Origin: a virus
Lineage: Duplodnaviria; Heunggongvirae; Uroviricota; Caudoviricetes
Strand: one strand, 5' to 3'
Virus record (IMG/VR): IMGVR_UViG_3300038393_003162
Span: 84,407-148,406 of that record
DNA: 64,000 bases
Part shown: positions 13,515-43,934 of the stretch, piece by piece
How positions within the stretch are numbered: the stretch's first letter is position 1
Layout: each line of letters opens with the position of its first letter
Program-made: the position numbers and the translations under genes
Notes under the pieces: model-generated
What the model was told of the DNA's origin: nothing
What the model saw: only the letters and a program-made list of their open reading frames with translations
The model's database searches: none

Positions 13515-14636
13515 TCAAAGAGCCGCTTTCTGGAGAATGCGATGTTGATTGACCCGAGCCTTCTCAATCTTGGACCACGCCTTCCGGAGCATCTTGCCCG
13601 CCCATGTGCGCGAGCAATTATGCTTCTCAGCCCACCGGGTTTGGAACCCATGGCTGCCTTCCTGCGCCATCTCGATCAACTCTCGTTCTTTCGCGTCCAA
13701 TCCGGAGCGGTCGAGAAGCTCATTGAAGGAGGTCACATCGACCTTGACAGGAGCGGGACAGGAGTTGATGCCGCCGATGAACTTGCCGTCACCCTCGTCG
13801 ATCTGCATCTCGGTATCGCGGATGGTCGACTTGCTTTCAGGACCAAACGCCGCTCTAAGCTGCTTGATTTCCTTGTCGGTAGGACGCCGAAACCCGCCAT
13901 TCTTGAGCGTGATCTTGACCCGAGACACGATCGATTCGAACCTCCTGTCTTCGATGTTCTCAATCGAGGCGGCATAATATGCCGACACCAACTTGTAGTT
14001 CTGGGAGAGCAACTTGTTCTGAGGATTGGTCTGAGCCAGTTCCCGCACCATGTGACGGAAGATGCTGTTGCTGACGTAGGTGCTGAATAAGACGTTGTCG
14101 CGGCGATACCCCCAGACAGCCGCGACAACTCCCATCAAGCCCACCTGGATCAAAACCTCAGCATCCACTAGGACTTGATCGTGCGACCGTCTCGCCAGCG
14201 TTTGTGCGAGATCGCAGACCATCCGGACGTAGCCCTCGATGATCCGATTCTGAACGGATGCGACCGCTTTAACCTTGGCGAGGTCCGACTCCGACAGCCC
14301 CAGCGTGTTGACATTCCTTCGCAACTCTTGAATCGAACCTCTGGCGAACCACTTGTCCGGCTTGGCGTTGCCGAGGATCTTGACCTGCTCGTATTCCTCG
14401 GTCGTCATCACGCCTCGGTAAGAAATGCGTCGAGGATGATTTTCCGGCAAGAACAAACGTTCCCGGAATTCTTCGGGAGCGTAGCGGAAGGACTTGGCGA
14501 TTCGGTTGAGAAGCTTGACCGAATCGCTGTATTTCTTGAGGACCACGTTTCCTTTTCGAAGAACATCGAAAAGGACTTCCTCCTCTTCTTTGCAAAGGTC
14601 GGAATGGATGATCGGGGAAACCGCTGTGTGAAACAT
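13515..14636 (-). CDS. Sigma70-family RNA polymerase sigma factor (phage-encoded)
   Basis: Region 2-like LIQVGLMGVVAAVWGY...FSTYVSNSIFRHM and C-terminal HTH; SD GGAGG. Confidence 0.75.
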   Translation of the reverse strand: MFHTAVSPIIHSDLCKEEEEVLFDVLRKGNVVLKKYSDSVKLLNRIAKSFRYAPEEFRERLFLPENHPRRISYRGVMTTEEYEQVKILGNAKPDKWFARGSIQELRRNVNTLGLSESDLAKVKAVASVQNRIIEGYVRMVCDLAQTLARRSHDQVLVDAEVLIQVGLMGVVAAVWGYRRDNVLFSTYVSNSIFRHMVRELAQTNPQNKLLSQNYKLVSAYYAASIENIEDRRFESIVSRVKITLKNGGFRRPTDKEIKQLRAAFGPESKSTIRDTEMQIDEGDGKFIGGINSCPAPVKVDVTSFNELLDRSGLDAKERELIEMAQEGSHGFQTRWAEKHNCSRTWAGKMLRKAWSKIEKARVNQHRILQKAAL

Positions 14637-14741: not shown

Positions 14742-15035
14742 CTAGTTATCGTCGTCGGTCAATGTCTTCCCGCACTGGACGCACTCGTAGCCGAGATCTC
14801 CGTAATCCGGGTGATCGTCGTTGAGCAAGCCCTGCTCGTCTGCCAGCCCGTTGACCTGTTCTTCAGCGAAATCGACGCTGATCTTTTCGCGTTTGGCGAG
14901 GGCATCGACGTCGATGCGACCAAAGCATGTCTGGCAGAAATCCTCGGGACTCCGGAAGGCTCCGGGGTCAGCCTGATATCGAGGTTGGTTGTTCTTATAA
15001 ATCTTCTCGGCGTTGATTACGGTGAGACGCGGCAT
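14742..15035 (-). CDS. Hypothetical Cys-containing protein
   Basis: FCQTC...YECVQC; ends in TAG in frame with the sigma gene. Confidence 0.65.
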   Translation of the reverse strand: MPRLTVINAEKIYKNNQPRYQADPGAFRSPEDFCQTCFGRIDVDALAKREKISVDFAEEQVNGLADEQGLLNDDHPDYGDLGYECVQCGKTLTDDDN

Positions 15036-19714: not shown

Positions 19715-20242
19715 TTATCCTGCTGCCGGAAGGCGCTGCTCCATTGCCTCGAAGAACTGGTCTTCGGTGACATTGTGTAATTCGAGCGTCTGAAGCCACT
19801 TGGCGTGACGCGCCCGACGTTCGTACGGGGTGACGGAAAAATCGTTGAAGATGGAGTCGAATGCCCACGCCAACCGATTATACAGCAGATCGGACATTCC
19901 GTTGTCCAGTTGGTCGTAAGTGATTCTCGCCAAGATGCCTTTGATGAAGCTCAAAGAATCCTCCAAAGATGGGTAAGGAATTTCACTAAGGTTCCACTTC
20001 CTCTGGTCGCACCAGGGAAACTCACCGGCTTCCGCGCGACAGATCAATTCAGCTTTGGCGTTGTTGCTCTTGATCCTCCTGGCAAAGATATCAGATGAAG
20101 TCAAACGCCACCGATCCCCGCTGGATGAGGTGACCCTGATCTGAATCGGATTAGCGTAGTCTACCAGAAGATAGACCATGTCGCCACCGCCCAGGCACCA
20201 GAGGTCACCGGCACGAGGATTACATACCGCACATCGACTCAT
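19715..20242 (-). CDS. Hypothetical protein
   Basis: 175-aa ORF in operon context; start uncertain. Confidence 0.55.
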   Translation of the reverse strand: MSRCAVCNPRAGDLWCLGGGDMVYLLVDYANPIQIRVTSSSGDRWRLTSSDIFARRIKSNNAKAELICRAEAGEFPWCDQRKWNLSEIPYPSLEDSLSFIKGILARITYDQLDNGMSDLLYNRLAWAFDSIFNDFSVTPYERRARHAKWLQTLELHNVTEDQFFEAMEQRLPAAG

Positions 20243-20254
20243 CGCCCGCCCTTC

Positions 20255-20812
20255 CTATAGGCTCTCAAAATACGCCATTTCCTTCATTCGTCGCCGCTTG
20301 ACATTCGGGGAATCGCTGACCAGTCCTTGCCCCGAAAGATACGTCCAGATCGATCGGTAGAGGCTCTGGGGATCAGCCCATGCTTGGTCGACTGCCCGAA
20401 GCCCTTGAAGACTGAGATGTTCGCCGGTGGATCGACAGTCGAAGAATGCGCAGGCGAATGGCGAAGTCTCGTGAATCCCGCACTTTCCGTCATCGCCAAG
20501 ATGGATGCACGAATGGTCCGGCTTCTCGGCAAGGACCAACGTGGGAATCCGCCGTTGCCCCTCCGCTTTCCCGGTCTGCTGGTTCAAGACCGCCACAGTG
20601 GCACCGGGAGACGCCAGCAGGTTCTTGCTCGCCCATTCCAAGGGGTCGGCACCTGCTGGGATCATCCTCGCGAGGTCGGACGGGATGAGGTAGCCCGGCA
20701 TATACCGGCAATTCATCAAGCAGTCTTTACAGCCGCACTTGGTCCTCGCGTGACCGAATTCGATCCTTTTGTGGTCGGGAACCGGAGAGTCGTTTAAGAC
20801 CGGAAGGCTCAT
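20255..20812 (-). CDS. YkgJ-family cysteine-cluster (Zn/Fe-chelating) protein
   Basis: CGCKDCLMNC...CIHLGDDGKCGIHETSPFACAFFDC; ends in TAG. Confidence 0.75.
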   Translation of the reverse strand: MSLPVLNDSPVPDHKRIEFGHARTKCGCKDCLMNCRYMPGYLIPSDLARMIPAGADPLEWASKNLLASPGATVAVLNQQTGKAEGQRRIPTLVLAEKPDHSCIHLGDDGKCGIHETSPFACAFFDCRSTGEHLSLQGLRAVDQAWADPQSLYRSIWTYLSGQGLVSDSPNVKRRRMKEMAYFESL

Positions 20813-26574: not shown

Positions 26575-27345
26575 TTATTGACCTGTAAGGCTATCCAGAA
26601 GCAACAATCGGGTCTGATTGATCTTCTTCCTCAACTCTTTGGTTCCGAGACATTCCTTGTTCTTCAGTATCTCCCGTAGTTTTCTCACAGAATCATTGCT
26701 CAAGGGAAAACTTGCCTTAATGGCATTGCAATGTTGACACATCGTTTGGTAATTATCGAGCGAATCGGCACCACCATAAGACTTTGCCTTGATATGATCC
26801 TTGGTCATGAGGACATTTCGACCATCTTCTTCGGCGTAGAAGTTGAAATGCGCGGTGAATTCGCCGGGAGGATTTTCGAGGATAAATTTGTTGCCTGTCA
26901 AACCACAAGATACGCAGGTCGGATTCTGCTGAAAGAGGCGGTAGCGATCCGAGTTCATTTTAACCTCATAAACATTTTCCGCAATCCTAATCAAGGTCTT
27001 TTCTTGGCTGTCGGTGATCCATGAGAAAACCTGTTCGGGTGTAAATGTTTTTAGTTGATTGACCGAAGATGACTTGTCCTTGAGGGGCACCAACTCCATT
27101 TGAATGCCAAAGTTCCTGTAATCCTCGCCTTGGGGACTTGGGGCGATTACATTGTTTACCAATTTACGCGCTTGCTCCGTAATCGATTCGAGCGATCCGA
27201 TGGCTTCGAATTCCCAAGAGGAAGTCGCGATTATCTTGTAGTGTGGCATACCATATTTATGGCGGGAAACTTTGCTTTCAAAAGGGTGGTGGTCACGTAC
27301 TGGAGGATTTCTGATGAGCTTCAACAGCGATGCATTGTCGGTCAA
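26575..27345 (-). CDS. HNH endonuclease
   Basis: CVSCG...TKDHIKAKSYGGADSLDNYQTMCQHCNAIK; true start probably downstream of 27345. Confidence 0.8.
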   Translation of the reverse strand: MTDNASLLKLIRNPPVRDHHPFESKVSRHKYGMPHYKIIATSSWEFEAIGSLESITEQARKLVNNVIAPSPQGEDYRNFGIQMELVPLKDKSSSVNQLKTFTPEQVFSWITDSQEKTLIRIAENVYEVKMNSDRYRLFQQNPTCVSCGLTGNKFILENPPGEFTAHFNFYAEEDGRNVLMTKDHIKAKSYGGADSLDNYQTMCQHCNAIKASFPLSNDSVRKLREILKNKECLGTKELRKKINQTRLLLLDSLTGQ

Positions 27346-27989: not shown

Positions 27990-28439
27990 TTAGCCCACCA
28001 CAACCTTAGACGAGCAACAATGCGATGCGGCTTCGACGGTCTCAGCCCTCTTACCCTGGCAGCAAGGCTTCGCCTCGTCGAGGATCGCCTTGATCATCGA
28101 GAACTCGACCAGCATTCGCTCCTTGTTGCTCCCGTCGAAATCAGGGAGAGGACCAACGCCACGACCCTGGACGATGACTCGCTGCCCGACCTTGATCCCG
28201 CTGGACTCGGGGAGGCTCGGTCCGACTTCCAGGACGTAGCCCTGAGGCGGTCCTTCGATCTCGGTGTCGTTGCCGAGGAGGATCGACCCACCCTGGATCT
28301 CCTGTGCCGTCAAGAACTCAACCATAATCAAAGAGCCGGTGGGATGGATGCCCGTCACCTTGGGGGCTGCCTTGACCACCGGAGCGGGAACCATGCTCAA
28401 ATCCAACTTACTCGAACCATTAAAGATAATTTCCGACAT
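27990..28439 (-). CDS. groES: GroES/Cpn10-like co-chaperonin
   Basis: IHPTGSLIMVE, GGSILL mobile loop, GYVLEVGP, IKVGQRVIV, SMIKAIL; Cys-rich tail. Confidence 0.8.
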   Translation of the reverse strand: MSEIIFNGSSKLDLSMVPAPVVKAAPKVTGIHPTGSLIMVEFLTAQEIQGGSILLGNDTEIEGPPQGYVLEVGPSLPESSGIKVGQRVIVQGRGVGPLPDFDGSNKERMLVEFSMIKAILDEAKPCCQGKRAETVEAASHCCSSKVVVG

Positions 28440-28578
28440 TCTCCAAACTCCTACTAGAGATTATTTTATTTAAATTGGTGTTAGTGCGAAGGTGTTATAT
28501 CATAATTTTAAAATAGTGTCAATAAAATAATCCTAATGTGAAACCTAAAATATTTTAGGTTTCACATTAAGATAAAAA

Positions 28579-28923
28579 TTAAGCGACGTGTGAGAGCCTC
28601 AGCAGTTGGTATTTTCGAAAATGACGACGTTGCTCGCCGTAGACTGGCTCTGTAGCCAGGGCGGTGGCGATGTGACCGATATCGGGTTCGCGGAAGAGTT
28701 TGGTGCGGATGCCGAGCGATTCGAGGCGTTCCTGCTCGCGGAGCAGTTGGGCTTCGTTCTTGACGCCGCAGGCAATCAGGAAAGGATGGGAGAGGTCGGG
28801 CGGGACGAAATGACGTGCAGCCTCGATGGCGGCATGCCCAGCCTGGACAACGATTTGTCCATAACTCTGGTCTTTACGGACCAAGACGTAAACGTACGGA
28901 TCATGATTCTCAATCTACAACAT
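28579..28923 (-). CDS. Pth2-family peptidyl-tRNA hydrolase with in-frame TAG at codon 3
   Basis: CAGGAG-ttgaaa-ATG TTG TAG ATT GAG AAT CAT GAT CCG TAC GTT TAC GTC TTG GTC CGT AAA GAC; then YVYVLVRKD, QAGHAA, FREPD, TALATEP. Confidence 0.8.
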
Positions 28924-28981
28924 TTTCAACTCCTGAAAAGAAAAACATGAGAGGGATGAATCAATCCCTCTCATAGACTGA

Positions 28982-30350: not shown

Positions 30351-30534
30351 GATATCCCCATTCCTTTTCTACCTTGGCTGTTACATGCCTTACAGAATCA
30401 ACTTCAGTTGTACTGCCGCATTGGAGACAACGTTCTACGACTCCATATTGGGCGTAGAACGTCTCCTTGCAGCAAGCACAATGATATTCCGTGAGATCAA
30501 GCACTTCTAGCTTCTTGCTTTTGTTCTTGCTCAC
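30343..30534 (-). CDS. Small zinc-ribbon protein
   Basis: HCACC...CLQCGS; GTG start with AAGGA SD. Confidence 0.55.
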   Translation of the reverse strand: MSKNKSKKLEVLDLTEYHCACCKETFYAQYGVVERCLQCGSTTEVDSVRHVTAKVEKEWGYHG

Positions 30535-33289
30535 CAATAATTTCCTTTGGTCGAGAACCGTTCCTGCCTGCCATGACGAGGGAGCATCGTGTACAGAGGC
30601 GTTCGGGGTTCTTCTCCACCTCGTACCGATATCGCCAGCACCGCTCGCACTTGGCATACTTAGTTTTCTGGACCTCCACCGAGAACCCATCGGAGACGAC
30701 CGGGTCGGGAATCCAGAAAACATCGGCAACCTTACACAGGTCCCGAATGATCTCCAGATTTTCGACCGCCGTCAAAATATTTTCCTGCTTCGTCCCCAAA
30801 ATGACCCAGACTTCTTCATTGGTCCGGATCACCTTCTCCGATCGTAGCTTTTCGATCTCGGCGAAAATCCGCTCCCTCAACTTAAAGATAGTATCCCATG
30901 GCAATTCCCGGCGCTCGTCGGTGGCAATTGGCTGAGGGAAGGTCTCCAGGAAGATACTCTTGTGGTCCACTCCCAATCCTTTGGACCTGTAAGACCACAA
31001 CTCCTCAGCAGTATGCGGAAGGATTGGTGAGATGAGCCGAGCCAGGGTCTCGTAGATCGTCCTCAATACCCAGCGAACCGAATTTCCCGAGGGCGAATCC
31101 AAGTCGTCCGCGTACAGACGGTCCTTGACCACATCGAAGTAGACACTGCTCAGGTCTACCACGCAAAAATTGTAAACCAGATGATAAACGTGATAGAAAC
31201 GATAGGAATCGTACGCTTTCTTGACCTCACCAATCAAGTCGTTGAGCCGAGTCAACATGTGGAAATCGATCTGGCTGGTGATCTCCGGACGGGAATCGGT
31301 ATTCTTCCACGCCCTATCCATGTTCCCGAGGATGAAGCGGAAGGTATTGCGGATCTTCCGATAGACATCCTGAGCGGTCGTCAGCAACTTGTCGTCGACC
31401 CGCAAGTCATCGGTGTAATCCTGGGATGCGATAAACAGCCGAATGACATCGGCACCGAATTTGCCCAAGGTCTCGATGACCGGAGGAGCTCCCTTGGACT
31501 TGCTGAACTTCTTGCCCGACTCGTCCACGACCCAGCCATGCGTGATGACCGTATCGAATGGTGCCCTGTTGTTCAGAGCCGTTCCCAAGAGCAGGGACGA
31601 CTGGAACCAGCCTCGATGCTGGTCGCTCCCCTCGATGTAAATGACCTTCTCAGCCCCCGAAGGGACCACAGAGGCGAAGCTTGAGCCGGACTCGAACCAG
31701 ACATCCAAGATGTCGGCATCGGCGCTGATGTCATCCTTTTCGCAATTCGGACACCAGCAGTGATTCTTGGTCTCGATGTCACGCCACCAGTCGTCGCCTT
31801 CCTCGATGGCAACCCGGATCACCTCTTTGGTCAAGAAGGATTGATTGCAGTTGTGGCAGTGGAACGCAGGGATCTTGATGCCCCAATGCCGCTGGCGGCT
31901 GATGCACCAGTTGGGTCGAGACTCGACCATACCCTCGATGCGGTTCTGGAGGTTCTCCGGAATCCACGTAGTCTCGGAGATCGCCTTGAGGGCTTTTGTC
32001 CTCAAGGCGTTCTTGTCCAGATCTACGAACCATTGGGGCGTAGCACGGGTGATTGTGGGATAGTGACATCGCCAGCAGTGAGGATAGGAATGAGTGATTC
32101 GTTCCTGATGCCAGAGACATCGACCCAGCATGGACGACAATGCCTTCAGGGTCTCCTTCTTCTTGACATGTTGTCCGTGGATCTCGGGACAACAGCGGAT
32201 GTTGTACTTACCGGCTTCATCGACCTTGTCCAGGATCGTCAGTCCGAGTTCGATCGCGAGCTTGTAGTCGTCGAGTCCGTGTGCCGGGGCGATGTGGACC
32301 ACGCCAGTACCGACTCCCTGCGTCACGAAATCGGCACCGACCACTTTTCGGGAATCAACCAGGAACCGGAACGGCATCGGAGCTAAGTAGGACTTCCCGA
32401 CCAACTCAGACCCAAGGCATTCACCGAGAATCTCGTGGTCGGCAACATCCATCAGTTCCAGCAGGTTGGCAACGGCAGATTCCTCAACTACAAATACGTC
32501 CCGGTGCGTTGGTCGCTGGCACTTGAGCATCTTGACGCAGACGTATTTGAGATCGGGATTAACTGCAAGCGCCACATTCCCCGGCAACGTCCATGGTGTC
32601 GTGGTCCATGCAACGAAAGAGAAAGGAGAAGAGACGCCCGAAAGATACCCGATAGCAGGGAATTCAACATAGAACGCATCGCTCTCAACGTCCTTATATT
32701 CGAGTTCTGCCTCTGCCAACGCCGTCTCATCATGAGGACACCAAGCGATGGGGCGTAGCTCCCGTTTGATCTGGTCCTTATCGACCAAGCGAGAGAGTAT
32801 CTCAAGCACCTTCCGCTTGTAACTCTCGTCCATCGTCAGATAGGGATGGGACCAATCCGCCAAGAGACCAAGCCGCTGAAATTGCTTAGCTTGAGATTTC
32901 TGACACTGCCCAGCCGTCACCCGGCAAGCTTTTCTGACAGTCAGTAGATTTTCTTGAGTGCCAAAATATTCCATGACACGGTGTTCGATCGGCAATCCGT
33001 GGCAGTCCCAGCCGGGCACAAAAGGGGCATCGCATCCCGAGAGCGTGAGATAACGGACAAGGATATCCTTCAACACCTTGTTGAACATGTGACCGAAGTG
33101 GATGTCGCCGTTGGCGTAGGGAGGACCGTCGTGGACGACTACGAGCGGCTTGTCCTTGCGGATTTCCCGGAGAGTCTCATAAAGCCCGTGCCATTTCGCC
33201 TGAATTTCAGGTTCGATGGCATCAAGATCAGGCTTCATGGGGTAGTCGGTCTTGGGAAGAAGCAACGTCTCCTTGTAGTTGACAGTCAT
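30497..33289 (-). CDS. ileS: Isoleucine--tRNA ligase (bacterial type 1)
   Basis: HDGPPYANGDIHFGH, GWDCHGLPIE, WTTTPWTLPGN, WCISRQR, EGSDQHRGWFQSS, KFSKS, C-terminal KCERCW...LCTRC. Confidence 0.97.
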   Translation of the reverse strand: MTVNYKETLLLPKTDYPMKPDLDAIEPEIQAKWHGLYETLREIRKDKPLVVVHDGPPYANGDIHFGHMFNKVLKDILVRYLTLSGCDAPFVPGWDCHGLPIEHRVMEYFGTQENLLTVRKACRVTAGQCQKSQAKQFQRLGLLADWSHPYLTMDESYKRKVLEILSRLVDKDQIKRELRPIAWCPHDETALAEAELEYKDVESDAFYVEFPAIGYLSGVSSPFSFVAWTTTPWTLPGNVALAVNPDLKYVCVKMLKCQRPTHRDVFVVEESAVANLLELMDVADHEILGECLGSELVGKSYLAPMPFRFLVDSRKVVGADFVTQGVGTGVVHIAPAHGLDDYKLAIELGLTILDKVDEAGKYNIRCCPEIHGQHVKKKETLKALSSMLGRCLWHQERITHSYPHCWRCHYPTITRATPQWFVDLDKNALRTKALKAISETTWIPENLQNRIEGMVESRPNWCISRQRHWGIKIPAFHCHNCNQSFLTKEVIRVAIEEGDDWWRDIETKNHCWCPNCEKDDISADADILDVWFESGSSFASVVPSGAEKVIYIEGSDQHRGWFQSSLLLGTALNNRAPFDTVITHGWVVDESGKKFSKSKGAPPVIETLGKFGADVIRLFIASQDYTDDLRVDDKLLTTAQDVYRKIRNTFRFILGNMDRAWKNTDSRPEITSQIDFHMLTRLNDLIGEVKKAYDSYRFYHVYHLVYNFCVVDLSSVYFDVVKDRLYADDLDSPSGNSVRWVLRTIYETLARLISPILPHTAEELWSYRSKGLGVDHKSIFLETFPQPIATDERRELPWDTIFKLRERIFAEIEKLRSEKVIRTNEEVWVILGTKQENILTAVENLEIIRDLCKVADVFWIPDPVVSDGFSVEVQKTKYAKCERCWRYRYEVEKNPERLCTRCSLVMAGRNGSRPKEIIGEQEQKQEARSA

Positions 33290-33690: not shown

Positions 33691-33743
33691 GATTCATCCT
33701 TACTGCGTAGAACATCGAGACTGGAAGACCTATGATGAATGAG

Positions 33744-33816
33744 TACGGACAGTGGGATTCGAACCCACAACAGCAGGTACTAGAAGCCTGCGCTCTTCCA
33801 TTTGAGCTATGTCCGC
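33744..33816 (-). tRNA. tRNA with anticodon CUA (amber suppressor-type); CCA not encoded
   Basis: GCGGACA-TA-GCTC-AAATGGAA-GAGC-G-CAGGC-TTCTAGT-ACCTG-CTGTT-GTGGG-TTCGAAT-CCCAC-TGTCCGT-A; standard numbering from both arms puts CTA at 34-36 with U33 and purine 37. Confidence 0.88.
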
Positions 33817-39813: not shown

Positions 39814-40449
39814 ATGGGAAAATTTAAAGATTTGACTGGGCAACGGATCGGACTACTTACTGTTTTGCATCTCACAGATAAAACAAAATACAAACATAAG
39901 TCTTTGGTTTGGATGTGTCAATGCGATTGTGGTAACACGAAAGAAATATCAGGGGCACAGCTTACTCAAGCTAAGAGTTGTGGCTGTGTTGCTCTGCATC
40001 GTAAAGAAACTTTTGGACAAAGAAATATCGGCGTTACTCCACTTCATGCTTTACCTCTTCAAGAATCCACCAAAAGGACTCATTTTGCTGAATACAAACG
40101 AAGTGCCGCAAGAAGAAGTTATCCATTCGAATTGCTTGAAGATGAATTTAGGTCACTGATTTTCCAAAATTGTTATTATTGTGATTCTCCACCTTCCAAG
40201 TTAAGAGTAGATCGACGTAGACCTGAAGGAAGTTACTTGTCAAATGGGATTGATCGGATTGATAATTCTATTGGGTACAAAATGAATAACTGCGTACCAT
40301 GCTGTTTCGTTTGTAATAGGGCAAAAGATACATTAACAATCGAAGAATTCAAGATATGGGTAAAAAGACTTGTTAGCCATCTTGCCTTAGATTCAAAATG
40401 CGACCAATACAAAGCAAATCATACTACTTTTAAGGAAAATCATGAGTAA
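39814..40449 (+). CDS. HNH homing endonuclease (copy 1)
   Basis: DLTGQRIGLLTV...CQCDCG...SCGC; CYYC...NGIDRIDNSIGYKMNNCVPCCFVCNRAK; AT-rich. Confidence 0.85.
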   Translation: MGKFKDLTGQRIGLLTVLHLTDKTKYKHKSLVWMCQCDCGNTKEISGAQLTQAKSCGCVALHRKETFGQRNIGVTPLHALPLQESTKRTHFAEYKRSAARRSYPFELLEDEFRSLIFQNCYYCDSPPSKLRVDRRRPEGSYLSNGIDRIDNSIGYKMNNCVPCCFVCNRAKDTLTIEEFKIWVKRLVSHLALDSKCDQYKANHTTFKENHE

Positions 40450-41047
40450 AAGCTTAGATTTAACTAATCAACGTCGAGGCATGCTTACAATTTTGCATTT
40501 CACTGGAGAAACAAAATATGCTCGTCCTTCTAAGGTCTGGTTATGCCAATGTGATTGTGGGACTTTGAAAAAGTTATCGGTAGCTGAGCTTCGACAAGCA
40601 ACAAATTGCGGGTGCGTTTATCGAAACTATCTTTCTACTTTTGGTCACAAAAATAAAGGCAAACTACCATCTTGCACACTACCTGTTCAAGAATCGAATA
40701 AAAGATCACATTTTAGAAGTTATAAAAACAACGCCATCAAACGTAATTATTCATTTGAATTACATGAAGAAGAATTTAGATCACTAATCATTCAGAATTG
40801 TCATTATTGCGGCTCCCCGCCCTCTAGCCTGAAGAAGGACTACCACAGACCAGAGGGTAGTTATTTATCTAATGGCATTGATCGGGTCGATAACTCTATT
40901 GGTTATGAAAAAACAAATTGCGTACCCTGTTGCGTTATTTGTAATAGAGCAAAGGACATCATGACTGTAGAGGAATTTAAAACATGGATAAAGAAAGTTG
41001 CTAAGAATCTTCATCTTGAATACGATTCGGCAAAAGCGGCAATTTAG
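40442..41047 (+). CDS. HNH homing endonuclease (copy 2)
   Basis: Close paralog of copy 1: NGIDRVDNSIGYEKTNCVPCCVICNRAK. Confidence 0.85.
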   Translation: MSKSLDLTNQRRGMLTILHFTGETKYARPSKVWLCQCDCGTLKKLSVAELRQATNCGCVYRNYLSTFGHKNKGKLPSCTLPVQESNKRSHFRSYKNNAIKRNYSFELHEEEFRSLIIQNCHYCGSPPSSLKKDYHRPEGSYLSNGIDRVDNSIGYEKTNCVPCCVICNRAKDIMTVEEFKTWIKKVAKNLHLEYDSAKAAI

Positions 41048-42043: not shown

Positions 42044-42430
42044 TTACTTTTTGTTGGCGATTGTCATGTGGAAGCATTGCTTGAAACTGTCCGGCGGTCT
42101 CGTGATCTCGCTGGAAACCGACAACCCGAGTTCGGCTCGGATATCCTCAAGATCACGACAATAAACGTCGAGCCAGAAGTATACCACGCCTTCGCGAACC
42201 ACACCAGAATAATCGAACGAGATTTCTTGGTTTTCATACTTCCCCCAAACGTCCATGCTTAGGGGAAGTTCGTTGCGAACTACAGAAATATGGGCAGCAT
42301 AACGTGGCTGATTGTACCTCTTCCATTTTGGAATCAACGCCCGATAGAATGCCGCAATCTCTGGATCTGCTTCCACCACTAACTTCAGTGGATCAGTCGA
42401 ATACTTAAGAATTCCCTTGGACTGGTACAT
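42044..42430 (-). CDS. 2H phosphoesterase-fold protein (copy B)
   Basis: AHISVVRNE and FHMTIAN; paralog of 26140-26550. Confidence 0.7.
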   Translation of the reverse strand: MYQSKGILKYSTDPLKLVVEADPEIAAFYRALIPKWKRYNQPRYAAHISVVRNELPLSMDVWGKYENQEISFDYSGVVREGVVYFWLDVYCRDLEDIRAELGLSVSSEITRPPDSFKQCFHMTIANKK

Positions 42431-43934
42431 CTGCCAACTCGTTATATTTCGGGTTTGACTTAAATGCCTCGTCGGTCATCCGGAGTCGCCGGATCACCTC
42501 GTCCTTGCCCATGATGACGAAGCTGTCGTAGAGTCCCGGTCCCACCGAAACGCCAGTGACCGCCACCCTGAGGGCGTTAACGATCAGCCCCATGGGCAAT
42601 TTCATTTCATTGCCATAGTTGTGAATAAGGGCATCAAGGCTCCCGACGCTCCATTCCTCTTTGTCCATGGCTTCGAATTTATCAGTCAAATAGAGAATTG
42701 CCTTCCTGGCATTCGGTTTGAAGAGCCGATTCTCGACTGCTTTCATGTCGTGCTGGAGATCGGTAAAGAAGAACGCACCGTATTTGATGATGTCGGAGAA
42801 CTTCTTGAGTCGGTCCCCGAGAGCGTCGATCACCGCATAGATGCGGTCGATATCCTCGTCAGTTGGCATGGTCAAGGGAAGCACGTCCTGGCGTGGCTCG
42901 ATCAGCTTGTGATGGAGCAATTGCCCGACTACGCCGACGAACTTGGGCGAAGCCGTGGTCCGTTTCATCCACTCACCCTGGAACCAGTAGAGCTTGTCGA
43001 TGTCGTGGCTTGCCGGTGCCTTGACCACTCGCTCTAGGCTGAAGTTTGCGACCAATTCGTCCCGAGAGAACATCTCGGTATGGTCGTCCAGGCTCCAGCC
43101 GAGGCGAGCCAGGTAGTTCATCATCGCCGCAGGCAGGTAATCATGGATATATTCTTCCATGCCAGCGCCGCCGTCACGCTTCGACATCTTCTTCTTGGAA
43201 TTGGGCGCGGCGACATACGGCAAGTGGGCGAATTGCGGTGGAGAGAATCCCATCGCCTCGTAAATCAACATCTGCGGGAACGTATTCGCCAGATGTTCCT
43301 CTGACCGGATCACGTGACTGATGCTCATCAGGGCATCGTCGATTACGGTCGCGAAAGAGTAAAGGGGCGACCCATCACCCCGCATGATGACGAAATCGGC
43401 GATGTCGTCGGTGTTGTATACTACCTCGCCCCGCACCAGGTCGTTGAGAACGATCTCGCGGTCAAGCGGGACCTTGAATCTAAGACAGTAAGGCATTCCC
43501 TGGTTCTGGAAATTGGCGATCTGTGCCGAGTTATAGGGCTTCTGCCGGAATCGATAGGGGACCTTCGCCTTGTCGGCTGCTGCCTTGTCGGTAGCACGTT
43601 CTTCGGCTGTGCTGTAGTCCTTGTAGACCGATCCTGTGGAGAGGAGTCGTTCCGCCCAATCCTGGTAGAGCATCTTACGGGCGGATTGGAAGTAGGGAAC
43701 GTGAGGACCATCGACTTCCGGTCCTTCGTCCCAATCGATCCCGAGCCACTGGAAGCTTTCTAGGATCGGCGCTATGGCTTCCTCCACGTGTCGGTCGCGG
43801 TCGGTGTCGTCGATACGGAGGATGAACTGACCACCATGCCGTCTCGCGAACAGCCAATTGAAGAGTGCTGTTCTCGCGCCACCGATATGAAGAAAACCAG
43901 TTGGCGAAGGTGCGAAACGTGTGCGAACCGTCAT
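42405..43934 (-). CDS. gltX: Glutamate--tRNA ligase
   Basis: RTRFAPSPTGFLHIGGARTALFNW, ISHVIRSEEH, KMSKR, LRVAVTG...GPGL. Confidence 0.95.
   Translation of the reverse strand: MTVRTRFAPSPTGFLHIGGARTALFNWLFARRHGGQFILRIDDTDRDRHVEEAIAPILESFQWLGIDWDEGPEVDGPHVPYFQSARKMLYQDWAERLLSTGSVYKDYSTAEERATDKAAADKAKVPYRFRQKPYNSAQIANFQNQGMPYCLRFKVPLDREIVLNDLVRGEVVYNTDDIADFVIMRGDGSPLYSFATVIDDALMSISHVIRSEEHLANTFPQMLIYEAMGFSPPQFAHLPYVAAPNSKKKMSKRDGGAGMEEYIHDYLPAAMMNYLARLGWSLDDHTEMFSRDELVANFSLERVVKAPASHDIDKLYWFQGEWMKRTTASPKFVGVVGQLLHHKLIEPRQDVLPLTMPTDEDIDRIYAVIDALGDRLKKFSDIIKYGAFFFTDLQHDMKAVENRLFKPNARKAILYLTDKFEAMDKEEWSVGSLDALIHNYGNEMKLPMGLIVNALRVAVTGVSVGPGLYDSFVIMGKDEVIRRLRMTDEAFKSNPKYNELADVPVQGNS

What the first reader, a model, noticed from the sequence alone, without database searches (positions are those of the whole stretch)
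33744..33816. Amber-reading tRNA(CUA) in a genome that still uses TAG as a stop
Seen: a full cloverleaf with canonical D and T loops and CTA centred in a 7-nt loop; the only oddities are G1-U72 and C31-A39. By my manual check about 8 of ~85 confident genes end in TAG, and no conserved enzyme is broken by an internal TAG except Pth2. Established: suppressor tRNAs occur in large phages, often with code-15 recoding. Inference: here it acts as a selective readthrough switch rather than a global recoding device. The charged amino acid is unclear (A73 and U35 are compatible with LysRS or GlnRS charging).
Basis: partly seen in the sequence, partly recalled or inferred. Interest (0 to 1): 0.85.

Follow-up and report, generated by a model that had tools for sequence, protein, structure and literature searches.

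The report
Amber suppressor tRNA keyed to one gene
A large soil phage that otherwise uses the normal genetic code carries a genuine tRNA that reads the UAG stop codon, and its one clear target is a UAG at the third codon of a nearby peptidyl-tRNA-hydrolase-like gene. I found this tRNA-gene pairing in about thirty other phages, including lab-grown jumbo phages whose suppressor tRNAs had no known purpose.

Summary
Window 33744-33816 (minus strand) is a full cloverleaf tRNA with anticodon CUA (ARAGORN; Rfam tRNA 60.3 bits). The 195-kb contig reads well under the standard code: TAG ends 25 of 259 called genes (9 of 84 in the window), and reading TAG as sense gains no more than reading TGA or TAA as sense.

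Only one gene needs UAG read-through. The Pth2-like gene at 28579-28923 (-) opens AGGAG-N6-ATG TTG TAG ATT, 4.8 kb from the tRNA.

I tested 30 further homologues of this gene: 18 IMG/VR loci, 5 metagenome contigs, a 595-kb uncultured phage, and cultured phages XacN1, Xoo-sp13, ME3, GAP32, Arash and RsoM2USA. All have start, 1-4 codons, then TAG, never TAA or TGA, and a purine follows in every case where I read the next base. With the window that makes 31 gated loci, and 26 also carry a tRNA(CUA). The other five are short or 8-31% complete contigs.

The selective read-through reading is therefore supported. The inserted amino acid stays unresolved. This copy has an atypical loop (G37, U38, C31.A39) that predicts weak suppression.

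I found no paper describing the pairing. The XacN1 authors reported no target for their suppressors. This scan has flagged the same pairing on other phage DNA before.

The parts
33744..33816 (-). tRNA with anticodon CUA. It is class I shaped, with a 5-nt variable loop, G1.U72, A73, no encoded CCA, anticodon loop UUCUAGU and a C31.A39 mismatch.
   Evidence: ARAGORN; Rfam RF00005 at 60.3 bits; fold z -3.56; structure drawing; identical in independent metagenome contigs.
28930..28934 (-). Shine-Dalgarno AGGAG, 6 nt upstream of the ATG of the Pth2-like gene.
   Evidence: Read from the sequence. It is the strongest SD-plus-ATG hit in the genome-wide scan for an early stop.
28915..28917 (-). In-frame TAG at codon 3 (ATG TTG TAG ATT). 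This is the proposed target of the suppressor tRNA.
   Evidence: A TAG at codon 3-6 is conserved in 30 homologues. The codon is unchanged in independent contigs.
28579..28923 (-). Pth2-like gene of 114 codons when the TAG is read through. The code-11 ORF would begin at TTG 28884, which has no SD and lies inside the first beta strand.
   Evidence: Pfam PF01981 at 28.6 bits against a cut-off of 23. AlphaFold2 model with pLDDT 92.9 and strand 1 at residues 7-13. Foldseek top hits are archaeal Pth2 structures at TM 0.73.
28946..28975 (-). Terminator-like hairpin with a T run, directly upstream of the Pth2-like gene's ribosome-binding site.
   Evidence: Consensus scan. This is a pattern match only.
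28530..28573 (-). Terminator-like hairpin of 20 pairs with a T run, directly downstream of the Pth2-like stop codon.
   Evidence: Consensus scan. This is a pattern match only.

Best explanation
The tRNA(CUA) and the Pth2-like gene form a dedicated key-and-lock pair in a phage that otherwise uses the standard code.

Proposed sequence of events:
1. The tRNA is probably transcribed with the minus-strand genes around it (a 93-aa ORF, the tRNA, a 134-aa ORF, then IleRS).
2. It is probably matured by host enzymes. CCA is not encoded, and no CCA-adding enzyme lies on the contig.
3. An unidentified synthetase charges it.
4. On the Pth2-like mRNA, ribosomes start at the ATG behind AGGAG, read UUG, and meet UAG followed by A.
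5. Without the suppressor, RF1 releases a dipeptide and no enzyme is made. The next in-frame start has no ribosome-binding site and would cut the first beta strand.
6. With charged suppressor tRNA, the 114-residue Pth2-fold protein is made.

The UAG lies in a short, variable leader ahead of the fold, so the identity of the inserted residue is probably not constrained. Genuine TAG stops elsewhere would be read through only at a low level. The G37/U38 loop of this copy predicts a weak suppressor.

Shown here: the tRNA gene, the TAG, its conservation, its co-occurrence with tRNA(CUA), and the standard code elsewhere. Inferred: expression, charging, actual suppression, and the purpose of the gate (timing, dosage, or feedback on translation state).
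For: 1. The tRNA is a high-scoring canonical tRNA with CUA centred in the loop.

2. There is no global recoding:
- Coding density is 0.893 under code 11 and 0.911 with TAG as sense. The controls are 0.918 with TGA as sense and 0.897 with TAA as sense.
- The same holds in each quarter of the contig.
- No RF1/RF2-type gene was found.

3. In 195 kb the only gene with an SD, a start, 1-6 codons, TAG and then an open coding frame is the Pth2-like gene. Its code-11 start lacks an SD and truncates strand 1 of the modelled fold.

4. The early TAG is conserved at 35-61% protein identity in:
- 18 IMG/VR loci;
- 3 database proteins whose 'Q' at that position is a TAG translated under code 15;
- contigs L175 and L177;
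- LR756511.1 and XacN1;
- Xoo-sp13, ME3, GAP32, Arash and RsoM2USA.
The stop is always TAG, never TAA or TGA. A purine follows in all 27 loci where I read the next base (the window included); I did not read it in the three short contigs or in near-duplicate L079.

5. A tRNA(CUA) is present in the same contig or genome in 26 of 31 gated cases, the window included (XacN1 per PMC5852040).

6. The XacN1 paper reports standard code use, two CUA suppressors, and no target found by reading through terminal amber stops.

7. A syntenic 595-kb relative, LR756511.1, has the same pairing and standard code in four 50-kb samples.
Against: - No expression, charging or suppression data exist. No RNA run holds this sequence.
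- The anticodon loop (G37, U38, C31.A39) departs from the A37/A38 context seen in the other partner suppressors. From my own knowledge of Yarus's 'extended anticodon' work, such a loop is expected to suppress poorly.
- In five gated loci no tRNA(CUA) was found. All five are very short contigs or contigs 8-31% complete.
- An ungated subfamily of the same protein still sits beside a tRNA(CUA) in L011/L044 and L176. Gating therefore cannot be the whole link between the enzyme and the tRNA.
- In L175 an ATG lies two codons after the TAG, so a bypass start is possible there.
- The contig is about 66% complete and shows no recognised structural genes.
Confidence: 0.7

Rival explanations
1. Late genes are recoded off the contig. 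On this reading the tRNA serves code-15-type recoding of structural or lysis genes that lie in the missing third of the genome, and the Pth2-like TAG is just one more recoded codon.
For: CheckV puts the record at about 66% complete, and it is linear with no terminal repeats. None of the ten largest proteins matched a structural PHROG. Recoding confined to late genes is known in other phages (papers listed).
Against: No block of the 195 kb shows a TAG-specific gain in coding density. Four 50-kb samples of the syntenic 595-kb relative show none either. XacN1, a complete genome with the same pairing, is described as standard code with 18 amber stops. No RF2 gene was found.
Confidence: 0.07
2. The suppressor has no dedicated target. 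On this reading it causes low-level read-through of host or phage TAG stops, as host sabotage or to make C-terminal extensions, and the Pth2-like TAG is incidental.
For: Twenty-five phage genes end in TAG. Two of them are followed in frame, with no other stop, by the next gene (window 20255-20812 then 19715-20242; 14742-15035 then 13515-14636).
Against: Downstream extensions of 23 of 25 TAG genes have negative coding scores. Both in-frame neighbours have their own SD and ATG, and the fused products match no single Pfam family. The XacN1 authors found no added homology beyond amber stops. This reading does not explain why one gene family keeps an early TAG in 31 lineages.
Confidence: 0.1
3. ATG-TTG-TAG is a two-codon upstream minigene. 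On this reading translation terminates there and re-initiates or couples downstream, or the minigene provokes peptidyl-tRNA drop-off, independently of the tRNA(CUA).
For: Two-codon minigenes are known to cause drop-off that Pth resolves (lambda bar minigenes; my own knowledge). ATT follows the TAG directly. In L175 an ATG follows two codons after the TAG.
Against: The stop is TAG in 31 of 31 lineages, although TAG is the rarest stop (about 10% here). A tRNA(CUA) is present in 26 of 31. In most loci, including this one, no canonical start with an SD follows the TAG.
Confidence: 0.06
4. The tRNA does not decode. On this reading it is a decaying copy, a decoy for host anticodon nucleases, or has some other non-translational role.
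For: The loop context is unusual (G37, U38) and there is a C31.A39 mismatch. The gene lies alone, 70 kb from the 33-tRNA array.
Against: It scores 60 bits against the tRNA model with all tertiary-contact positions intact. The same loop recurs in an unrelated phage suppressor, L011/L044, which sits next to a Pth2-like gene. It shares the acceptor-end style of the phage's working tRNA set. The TAG-gated gene in the same genome needs a reader.
Confidence: 0.07

Closest known systems
Phage-encoded suppressor tRNAs of stop-codon-recoded phages (genetic code 15, TAG read as Gln; crAss-like, Lak and other gut or jumbo phages; e.g. PMC9523058, PMC7886860, PMC13037316)
   Same: A phage-borne tRNA with anticodon CUA reads a codon that the host treats as a stop, and this controls which phage proteins can be made.
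   Different: Here the genome is not recoded. TAG still ends about 10% of genes, and only one gene, at its third codon, needs read-through. No RF2 gene was found and coding density does not rise under code 15.
Suppressor tRNAs of Xanthomonas jumbo phage XacN1 (PMC5852040)
   Same: XacN1 is a standard-code jumbo phage with CUA suppressor tRNAs. It carries a homologue of the gated gene (46% identity), preceded by GAGGA..ATG AAG TAG.
   Different: The paper looked only beyond terminal amber stops and reported no target. The start-proximal TAG of ORF364 lies four codons upstream of the annotated start. In XacN1 the Pth2-like domain is the C-terminal part of a 280-residue protein. Its suppressors lie in the terminal repeats.
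Peptidyl-tRNA hydrolase 2 (Pth2, Pfam PF01981; archaeal structures 2zv3, 3erj, 1wn2, 1xty; human Bit1 1q7s)
   Same: The gated protein passes the Pfam cut-off and its model superposes on Pth2 structures at TM about 0.73. The Asp of the D-x-G motif and the Q..HA helix motif are kept.
   Different: It belongs to a divergent phage clade (PYVYVLVRKDL...VQAxHA...EPDIG..TALATEP). The canonical Gly-Lys before the Q..HA motif is absent from the alignment. The same phage also has a canonical, ungated Pth2 scoring 97 bits. Enzyme activity is untested.
Laboratory amber suppressors (E. coli supE, supF; T4 psu1) and programmed read-through genes
   Same: Suppressor tRNA competes with RF1 at UAG. A purine after UAG favours read-through (my own knowledge of Bossi 1983 and Miller & Albertini 1983).
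   Different: This is a natural, conserved pairing of a suppressor with a single start-proximal UAG, not a mutant tRNA or a C-terminal extension.

Membership tests
tRNA (Rfam RF00005) | Cloverleaf with conserved tertiary positions, scoring above the gathering threshold | tested here: met
   60.3 bits against 29, full-length match. U8, A14, G18 G19, U33, T loop UUCGAAU and A58 are present.
Amber suppressor tRNA (functional class) | CUA at positions 34-36 of a 7-nt loop behind U33 | tested here: met
   Loop U32 U33 C34 U35 A36 G37 U38. CUA is also central if C31.A39 opens to a 9-nt loop.
Amber suppressor tRNA (functional class) | An in-frame UAG in a gene of the same genome that needs reading | tested here: met
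   Codon 3 of the Pth2-like gene, conserved in 30 homologues.
Amber suppressor tRNA (functional class) | The tRNA is aminoacylated and inserts a residue at UAG | not testable with these tools
   No RNA runs were listed. This needs a reporter, mass spectrometry or an acid-gel assay.
Amber suppressor tRNA (functional class) | Loop context typical of efficient suppressors (A37, A38) | tested here: not met
   G37 and U38 here. 14 of the 15 suppressors from other loci aligned, and those of LR756511.1 and Xoo-sp13, have CUCUAAA-type loops.
tRNA-Pyl (ARAGORN's label) | Short D loop without G18 G19, 3-nt variable loop, 6-bp anticodon stem, atypical T loop | tested here: not met
   Canonical 8-nt D loop with GG, 5-nt variable loop, 5-bp anticodon stem with a mismatch, T loop UUCGAAU. 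The label only reflects the anticodon.
Code-15 recoded phage (TAG read as Gln) | Many in-frame TAGs in conserved genes, and a clear gain in coding density or ORF length when TAG is read as sense | tested here: not met
   Density 0.893 rises to 0.911, no more than with TGA or TAA as sense. Per-quarter results agree. There is one gated gene only. This covers 195 kb of a genome about 66% complete.
Code-15 recoded phage (TAG read as Gln) | Phage-encoded release factor 2 (frequent but not universal) | tested here: not met
   No RF-1 or PCRF domain on the contig.
Pth2 (PF01981), for the gated target | Sequence match above the curated cut-off, and the Pth2 fold | tested here: met
   28.6 bits against 23. 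pLDDT 92.9. Foldseek hits 2zv3, 3erj and 1wn2 at E 1e-6, TM 0.73.
Pth2 (PF01981), for the gated target | Catalytic residues of characterised Pth2 (the Lys of the G-K motif and the Asp of D-x-G) | tested here: inconclusive
   The Asp is invariant (D78), but the G-K position aligns to a gap or non-Lys residues in the phage clade. Residue roles are recalled from memory and were not checked in a paper.
TAG-gated Pth2-like gene plus tRNA(CUA) pair of large phages (not found in the literature; flagged earlier by this scan) | SD-ATG, 1-4 sense codons, TAG, then the Pth2-like domain | tested here: met
   AGGAG-N6-ATG TTG TAG ATT. RsoM2USA has the same four codons.
TAG-gated Pth2-like gene plus tRNA(CUA) pair of large phages (not found in the literature; flagged earlier by this scan) | tRNA(CUA) in the same genome, with the standard code elsewhere | tested here: met
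   The tRNA lies 4.8 kb from the gene. Standard code is shown.

The most novel reading that the evidence does not exclude
The enzyme and the tRNA form a feedback loop rather than a simple lock. On this reading the Pth2-like hydrolase acts on the suppressor's own aminoacyl- or peptidyl-tRNA, or on the drop-off products made at the two-codon leader. More active suppressor then makes more hydrolase, which lowers suppressor activity, so read-through is held at a set point that spares the phage's roughly 10% genuine TAG stops.

This would explain why the gated gene is always a tRNA-ester hydrolase. It would also explain why an ungated subfamily of the same protein still sits next to a tRNA(CUA) in L011/L044 and L176.
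Probability: 0.15. Interest if true: 0.85.

Novelty: new variant of a known kind. Interest (0 to 1): 0.72.

Why it matters
Suppressor tRNAs in standard-code jumbo phages have been a loose end. The XacN1 authors searched for targets and reported none (PMC5852040). A conserved UAG at the very start of one gene family, always paired with a CUA tRNA, gives those tRNAs a concrete and testable job.

It also gives a natural example of a one-gene translational lock built from a stop codon, in a genome that still uses that codon as a stop. That is a plausible intermediate on the road to the full TAG recoding seen in other phages.

The finding also corrects annotation. The gene is mis-started, fragmented or missed in the records I checked (XacN1, Xoo-sp13, ME3, GAP32, Arash, RsoM2USA), because gene callers stop at the TAG.

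The pairing occurs in cultured phages of Xanthomonas, Acinetobacter, Cronobacter, Salmonella and Ralstonia, so it can be tested directly at the bench.

Tried and rejected
- **Close DNA or protein relatives.** Megablast of 12 kb around the tRNA against GenBank phages found nothing. A search of IMG/VR for close relatives of the IleRS found none. A tblastn of the IleRS gave mostly bacterial-type sequences in phage records at about 37% identity.
- **tRNA loop pattern in IMG/VR.** The pattern TTCTAGT...GGTTCGAATCC mostly returned tRNA-Arg(UCU) genes in a different register. Only L011/L044 carry a CUA tRNA with the same loop.
- **Amino acid from homologues.** Three database proteins show Q at the TAG position, but the look-up reports 'with_TAG=Q', so this is a code-15 translation and not evidence for Gln.
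- **Amino acid from the tRNA body.**
  - There is no close paralogue among the phage's 33 other tRNAs.
  - The best match is tRNA-Arg(UCG) at 69% identity, sharing the D loop and G1.U72/A73.
  - A20 and A59 are compatible with ArgRS (from memory of McClain & Foss 1988), and U35 and A73 with LysRS or GlnRS. Nothing is decisive.
  - Arg enrichment among the nearest neighbours is an artefact of how those loci were chosen.
- **IleRS as an orthogonal partner.** It has an intact anticodon-binding domain, and the phage has cognate Ile tRNAs. The adjacency is not seen in the syntenic relative. I rejected this as unsupported.
- **A pattern hit in G001 (L062).** This was a chance match and not a tRNA.
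- **Other read-through candidates.**
  - Seven internal-TAG candidates were flagged; five are antisense shadows of real genes.
  - One is the TAG stop of gene 152651-153208, whose in-frame neighbour has its own start. The last (genome 107645, minus strand) lies in an intergenic gap and was not pursued.
  - The two in-frame gene pairs each have their own starts and match no single Pfam family across the TAG.
- **Expression.** No RNA holder was listed. The contigs laid show identity only.
- **Translation factors.** No CCA-adding enzyme and no release-factor gene were found on the contig.
- **Promoters.** The promoter scan was at chance level.
- **A gated neighbour in L011.** The only hit looks like another tRNA and not a gene.
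- **Not attempted.** I did not run complex prediction, because no protein-protein claim is made.

Full report
**The observation.** ARAGORN finds one tRNA in the window, at 33743-33816 on the minus strand, with anticodon CTA. Rfam's tRNA model matches 33744-33816 (-) end to end at 60.3 bits, against a gathering score of 29. The RNA folds as a cloverleaf at -29.7 kcal/mol, better than all 200 shuffles.

From the sequence and ARAGORN's drawing it has:
- G1.U72, A73 and no encoded CCA;
- an 8-nt D loop with G18 G19;
- a 5-nt variable loop, so it is class I;
- T loop UUCGAAU;
- a 5-bp anticodon stem whose last pair is a C31.A39 mismatch;
- loop U32 U33 C34 U35 A36 G37 U38.

ARAGORN's label 'tRNA-Pyl' only reflects the anticodon. 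None of the structural hallmarks of tRNA-Pyl is present.

**The genome.** The window is the reverse complement of 109463-173462 of a 195,476-bp linear IMG/VR virus record. CheckV estimates it at about 66% complete. The record carries 34 tRNA genes: 33 lie in an array at 35-69 kb, and the CUA tRNA lies alone at 139.6 kb.

Next to the CUA tRNA lies a phage-encoded IleRS (TIGR00392, 767 bits). About 9 kb away lies a bacterial-type GluRS. Identical sequence occurs in several soil and rhizosphere metagenomes.

G1.U72 with A73 and C74 turns out to be a house style shared by at least six other tRNAs of this phage. 31 of the 34 tRNAs lack an encoded CCA. The suppressor's genuinely unusual features are therefore G37, U38 and the 31-39 mismatch.

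**The genetic code.**
- Greedy ORF coverage is 0.893 under code 11. It is 0.911 with TAG as sense, 0.918 with TGA as sense and 0.897 with TAA as sense, so TAG shows no specific gain.
- The same holds for each quarter of the contig.
- A hexamer-trained gene caller gives 259 genes with stops TGA 129, TAA 105 and TAG 25.
- For 23 of the 25 TAG-terminated genes the in-frame extension has a negative coding score.
- The other two are followed in frame by the next gene. Each of those has its own SD and ATG, and no Pfam family spans the junction.
- No release-factor domain is encoded on the contig.

**The one gene that needs UAG.** I scanned upstream of every gene and then scanned the whole genome for a motif (SD, start, 1-6 codons, stop, at least 50 open coding codons). 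Both scans single out one TAG case.

At window 28934-28912 (-) the sequence reads AGGAG, six bases, then ATG TTG TAG ATT. The frame runs on into a Pth2 domain. The code-11 ORF would start at TTG 28884, which has no SD.

In an AlphaFold2 model (pLDDT 92.9) that TTG lies inside the first beta strand. The model's best PDB matches are archaeal Pth2 structures at TM 0.73. Pfam PF01981 is passed at 28.6 bits against a cut-off of 23.

Terminator-like hairpins bracket the gene. The phage also has a canonical, ungated Pth2 at genome 73170-73721. Independent metagenome contigs cover the TAG and the tRNA with no differences.

**Is the pairing conserved?** I tested this myself.

IMG/VR loci:
- The single-protein search gave L060, and a 12-sequence profile gave 17 more loci.
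- All 18 have an ATG, usually behind an SD-like purine run, then 1-4 codons, then TAG, immediately ahead of the domain.
- A tRNA(CUA) lies within 10 kb in 13 of them. In L060's contig it lies 20 kb away. In L075 an odd-looped CUCUAA tRNA lies beside the gene.
- The three without one are on contigs 8-31% complete.

Database proteins:
- Three appeared to have Gln at the TAG position. These are TAG codons translated under code 15, so they are three more gated cases and say nothing about the amino acid.
- One of those short contigs (L085) has a tRNA(CUA) just upstream of the gene.
- Two long metagenome contigs, L175 and L177 (the latter from a 633-kb contig), are gated with tRNA(CUA) nearby.

GenBank records:
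- The family occurs in cultured jumbo phages.
- XacN1, Xoo-sp13, ME3, GAP32, Arash and RsoM2USA all have the early TAG. RsoM2USA has the very same ATG TTG TAG ATT.
- All six have a tRNA(CUA) (XacN1 per PMC5852040).
- RaK2 lacks the ATG-x-TAG leader and has no canonical tRNA(CUA).
- The uncultured 595-kb phage LR756511.1 is syntenic with this contig around the gene. It has M-T-H-TAG and a tRNA(CUA) 8 kb away, and four 50-kb samples look standard-coded.

Totals: 31 gated lineages including the window, all with TAG and never TAA or TGA. A purine follows the TAG in all 27 loci where I read the next base; I did not read it in the three short contigs or in near-duplicate L079. 26 have a detected tRNA(CUA). 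Two pairs among the 31 (L078/L079 and L082/L083) are near-identical, so there are fewer independent lineages.

The partner tRNAs are only 43-64% identical to this one, and most have the loop CUCUAAA. The pairing is therefore conserved while the tRNA body is not.

**How it most likely works.** Ribosomes start at the ATG, read one codon and meet UAG-A. RF1 would release a dipeptide. A charged CUA tRNA lets translation continue into the Pth2-fold protein. The UAG sits in a short variable leader ahead of strand 1, so any residue may be acceptable there.

A purine after UAG favours suppression over termination in E. coli. This is my own knowledge (Bossi 1983; Miller & Albertini 1983) and was not checked here.

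This phage's suppressor has G37/U38 rather than A37/A38. By Yarus's extended-anticodon rule (again my own knowledge) that predicts weak suppression, which would also limit damage at the 25 genuine TAG stops.

What the gate is for is inference. It could set timing or dosage, sense tRNA or RF1 status, or act as feedback.

One further observation bears on this. An ungated subfamily of the same protein still lies beside a tRNA(CUA) in L011/L044, whose tRNA shares this window's odd loop, and in L176. That hints that the enzyme and the tRNA are linked functionally, not only by the lock. I record this as the novel case.

**The amino acid.** It is unresolved. The closest paralogue by score is the phage's tRNA-Arg(UCG), with the same D loop and the same G1.U72/A73. 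A20 and A59 are present, and these are Arg identity elements in amber-suppressor contexts as I recall from McClain & Foss 1988. The neighbouring IleRS has a normal anticodon-binding domain and its own cognate tRNAs, and I see no support for it as a dedicated partner.

**Comparison with what is known.** Phage suppressor tRNAs are well known in code-15 phages (papers). This case fails that membership test, because there are no widespread in-frame TAGs, no coding-density gain and no RF2 gene.

The XacN1 paper explicitly reports CUA suppressors with no identifiable target in a standard-code jumbo phage. I searched the paper library with four term sets:
- suppressor tRNA, peptidyl-tRNA hydrolase, phage and amber;
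- Pth2, phage and suppressor;
- jumbo phages, peptidyl-tRNA hydrolase, tRNA repair and biological conflicts;
- suppressor tRNA, phage, standard genetic code and recoding.

None of the papers I opened, and no title or abstract listed by the four searches, describes the pairing. The library is incomplete, so this is not proof that it is unpublished.

Earlier notes of this scan describe the same pairing on other phage DNA. I found the TAG-gated gene before reading them. I took from them the lead to test conservation in unrelated and cultured phages, and I then verified that independently.

**Verdict.** It is a new member of a recurrent suppressor-plus-gated-Pth2-like pairing that I could not find in the literature. 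I class that pairing as a new variant of phage suppressor-tRNA biology. This copy stands out for its atypical anticodon loop.

Main caveats:
- No expression or suppression data exist.
- The contig is incomplete.
- The inserted amino acid and the purpose of the gate are unknown.

Noticed in passing
window 30497-33289 (-) and 42405-43934 (-): The phage encodes a full-length IleRS (TIGR00392, 767 bits; intact anticodon-binding domain) and a bacterial-type GluRS (TIGR00464, 439 bits). The IleRS is only about 37% identical to any sequence in GenBank phage records.
   Followed up: partly
genome 35-69 kb (outside the window) and window 33744-33816: At least seven of the phage's 34 tRNAs share an acceptor end with G1.U72, A73 and C74: Arg-UCG (two copies), Arg-GCG, Lys-CUU, Glu-UUC, Ile-UAU and the suppressor. 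31 of 34 lack an encoded CCA, and no CCA-adding enzyme is on the contig.
   Followed up: partly
L118 (XacN1 243684-245192), L121 (Xoo-sp13), L122 (ME3), L123 (GAP32), L124 (Arash), L125 (RsoM2USA): In GenBank records of cultured jumbo phages the gated Pth2-like gene is mis-started just after the TAG (XacN1 ORF364, Xoo-sp13_327, ME3_195), truncated (GAP32_397; Arash gp84c, a 50-residue 'peptidyl-tRNA hydrolase'), or not annotated at all (RsoM2USA).
   Followed up: yes
L011 9519-10060, L044, L176 10001-10766: An ungated subfamily of the Pth2-like protein (start MNKRLYILV or MKLYVLVRKDM, no early TAG) still lies 170-400 nt from a tRNA(CUA). The L011/L044 tRNA has the same unusual loop, UUCUAGU with a 31-39 mismatch, as this window's tRNA.
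   Followed up: partly
window 20255-20812 / 19715-20242 and 14742-15035 / 13515-14636 (both minus strand): Two gene pairs are separated only by a TAG and a few in-frame codons with no other stop. Any amber suppression would fuse a fraction of each pair. Both downstream genes have their own SD and ATG.
   Followed up: partly
window 39814-41047 (+): A low-GC island (0.42 against about 0.51) holds two plus-strand ORFs of 211 and 201 aa in an otherwise minus-strand region. My hexamer model did not call them, which suggests foreign codon usage.
   Followed up: no
window 26575-27345 (-) and 27990-28439 (-): An HNH endonuclease (PHROG 25184, E 4e-16) and a weak Cpn10/GroES-like match (E 0.002, below the cut-off) lie just downstream of the Pth2-like gene.
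   Followed up: no
genome 62311-62393 and 63360-63436 (outside the window): ARAGORN gives two tRNA genes 8-nt anticodon loops ('anticodons' aaag and gcaa). Both encode CCA, unlike almost all the others.
   Followed up: no
L120 (LR756511.1 159127-183429) against genome 144.5-149.8 kb: The 595-kb uncultured phage LR756511.1 is collinear with this contig over at least three genes around the Pth2-like gene, at 40-53% amino-acid identity. This suggests the window's phage belongs to a huge-phage lineage.
   Followed up: partly
L119 and L174 (RaK2 195541-195616): RaK2 has a weak tRNA-like gene (30 bits) whose anticodon arm appears to carry an 11-nt loop containing CTA. It is not called by ARAGORN.
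   Followed up: no
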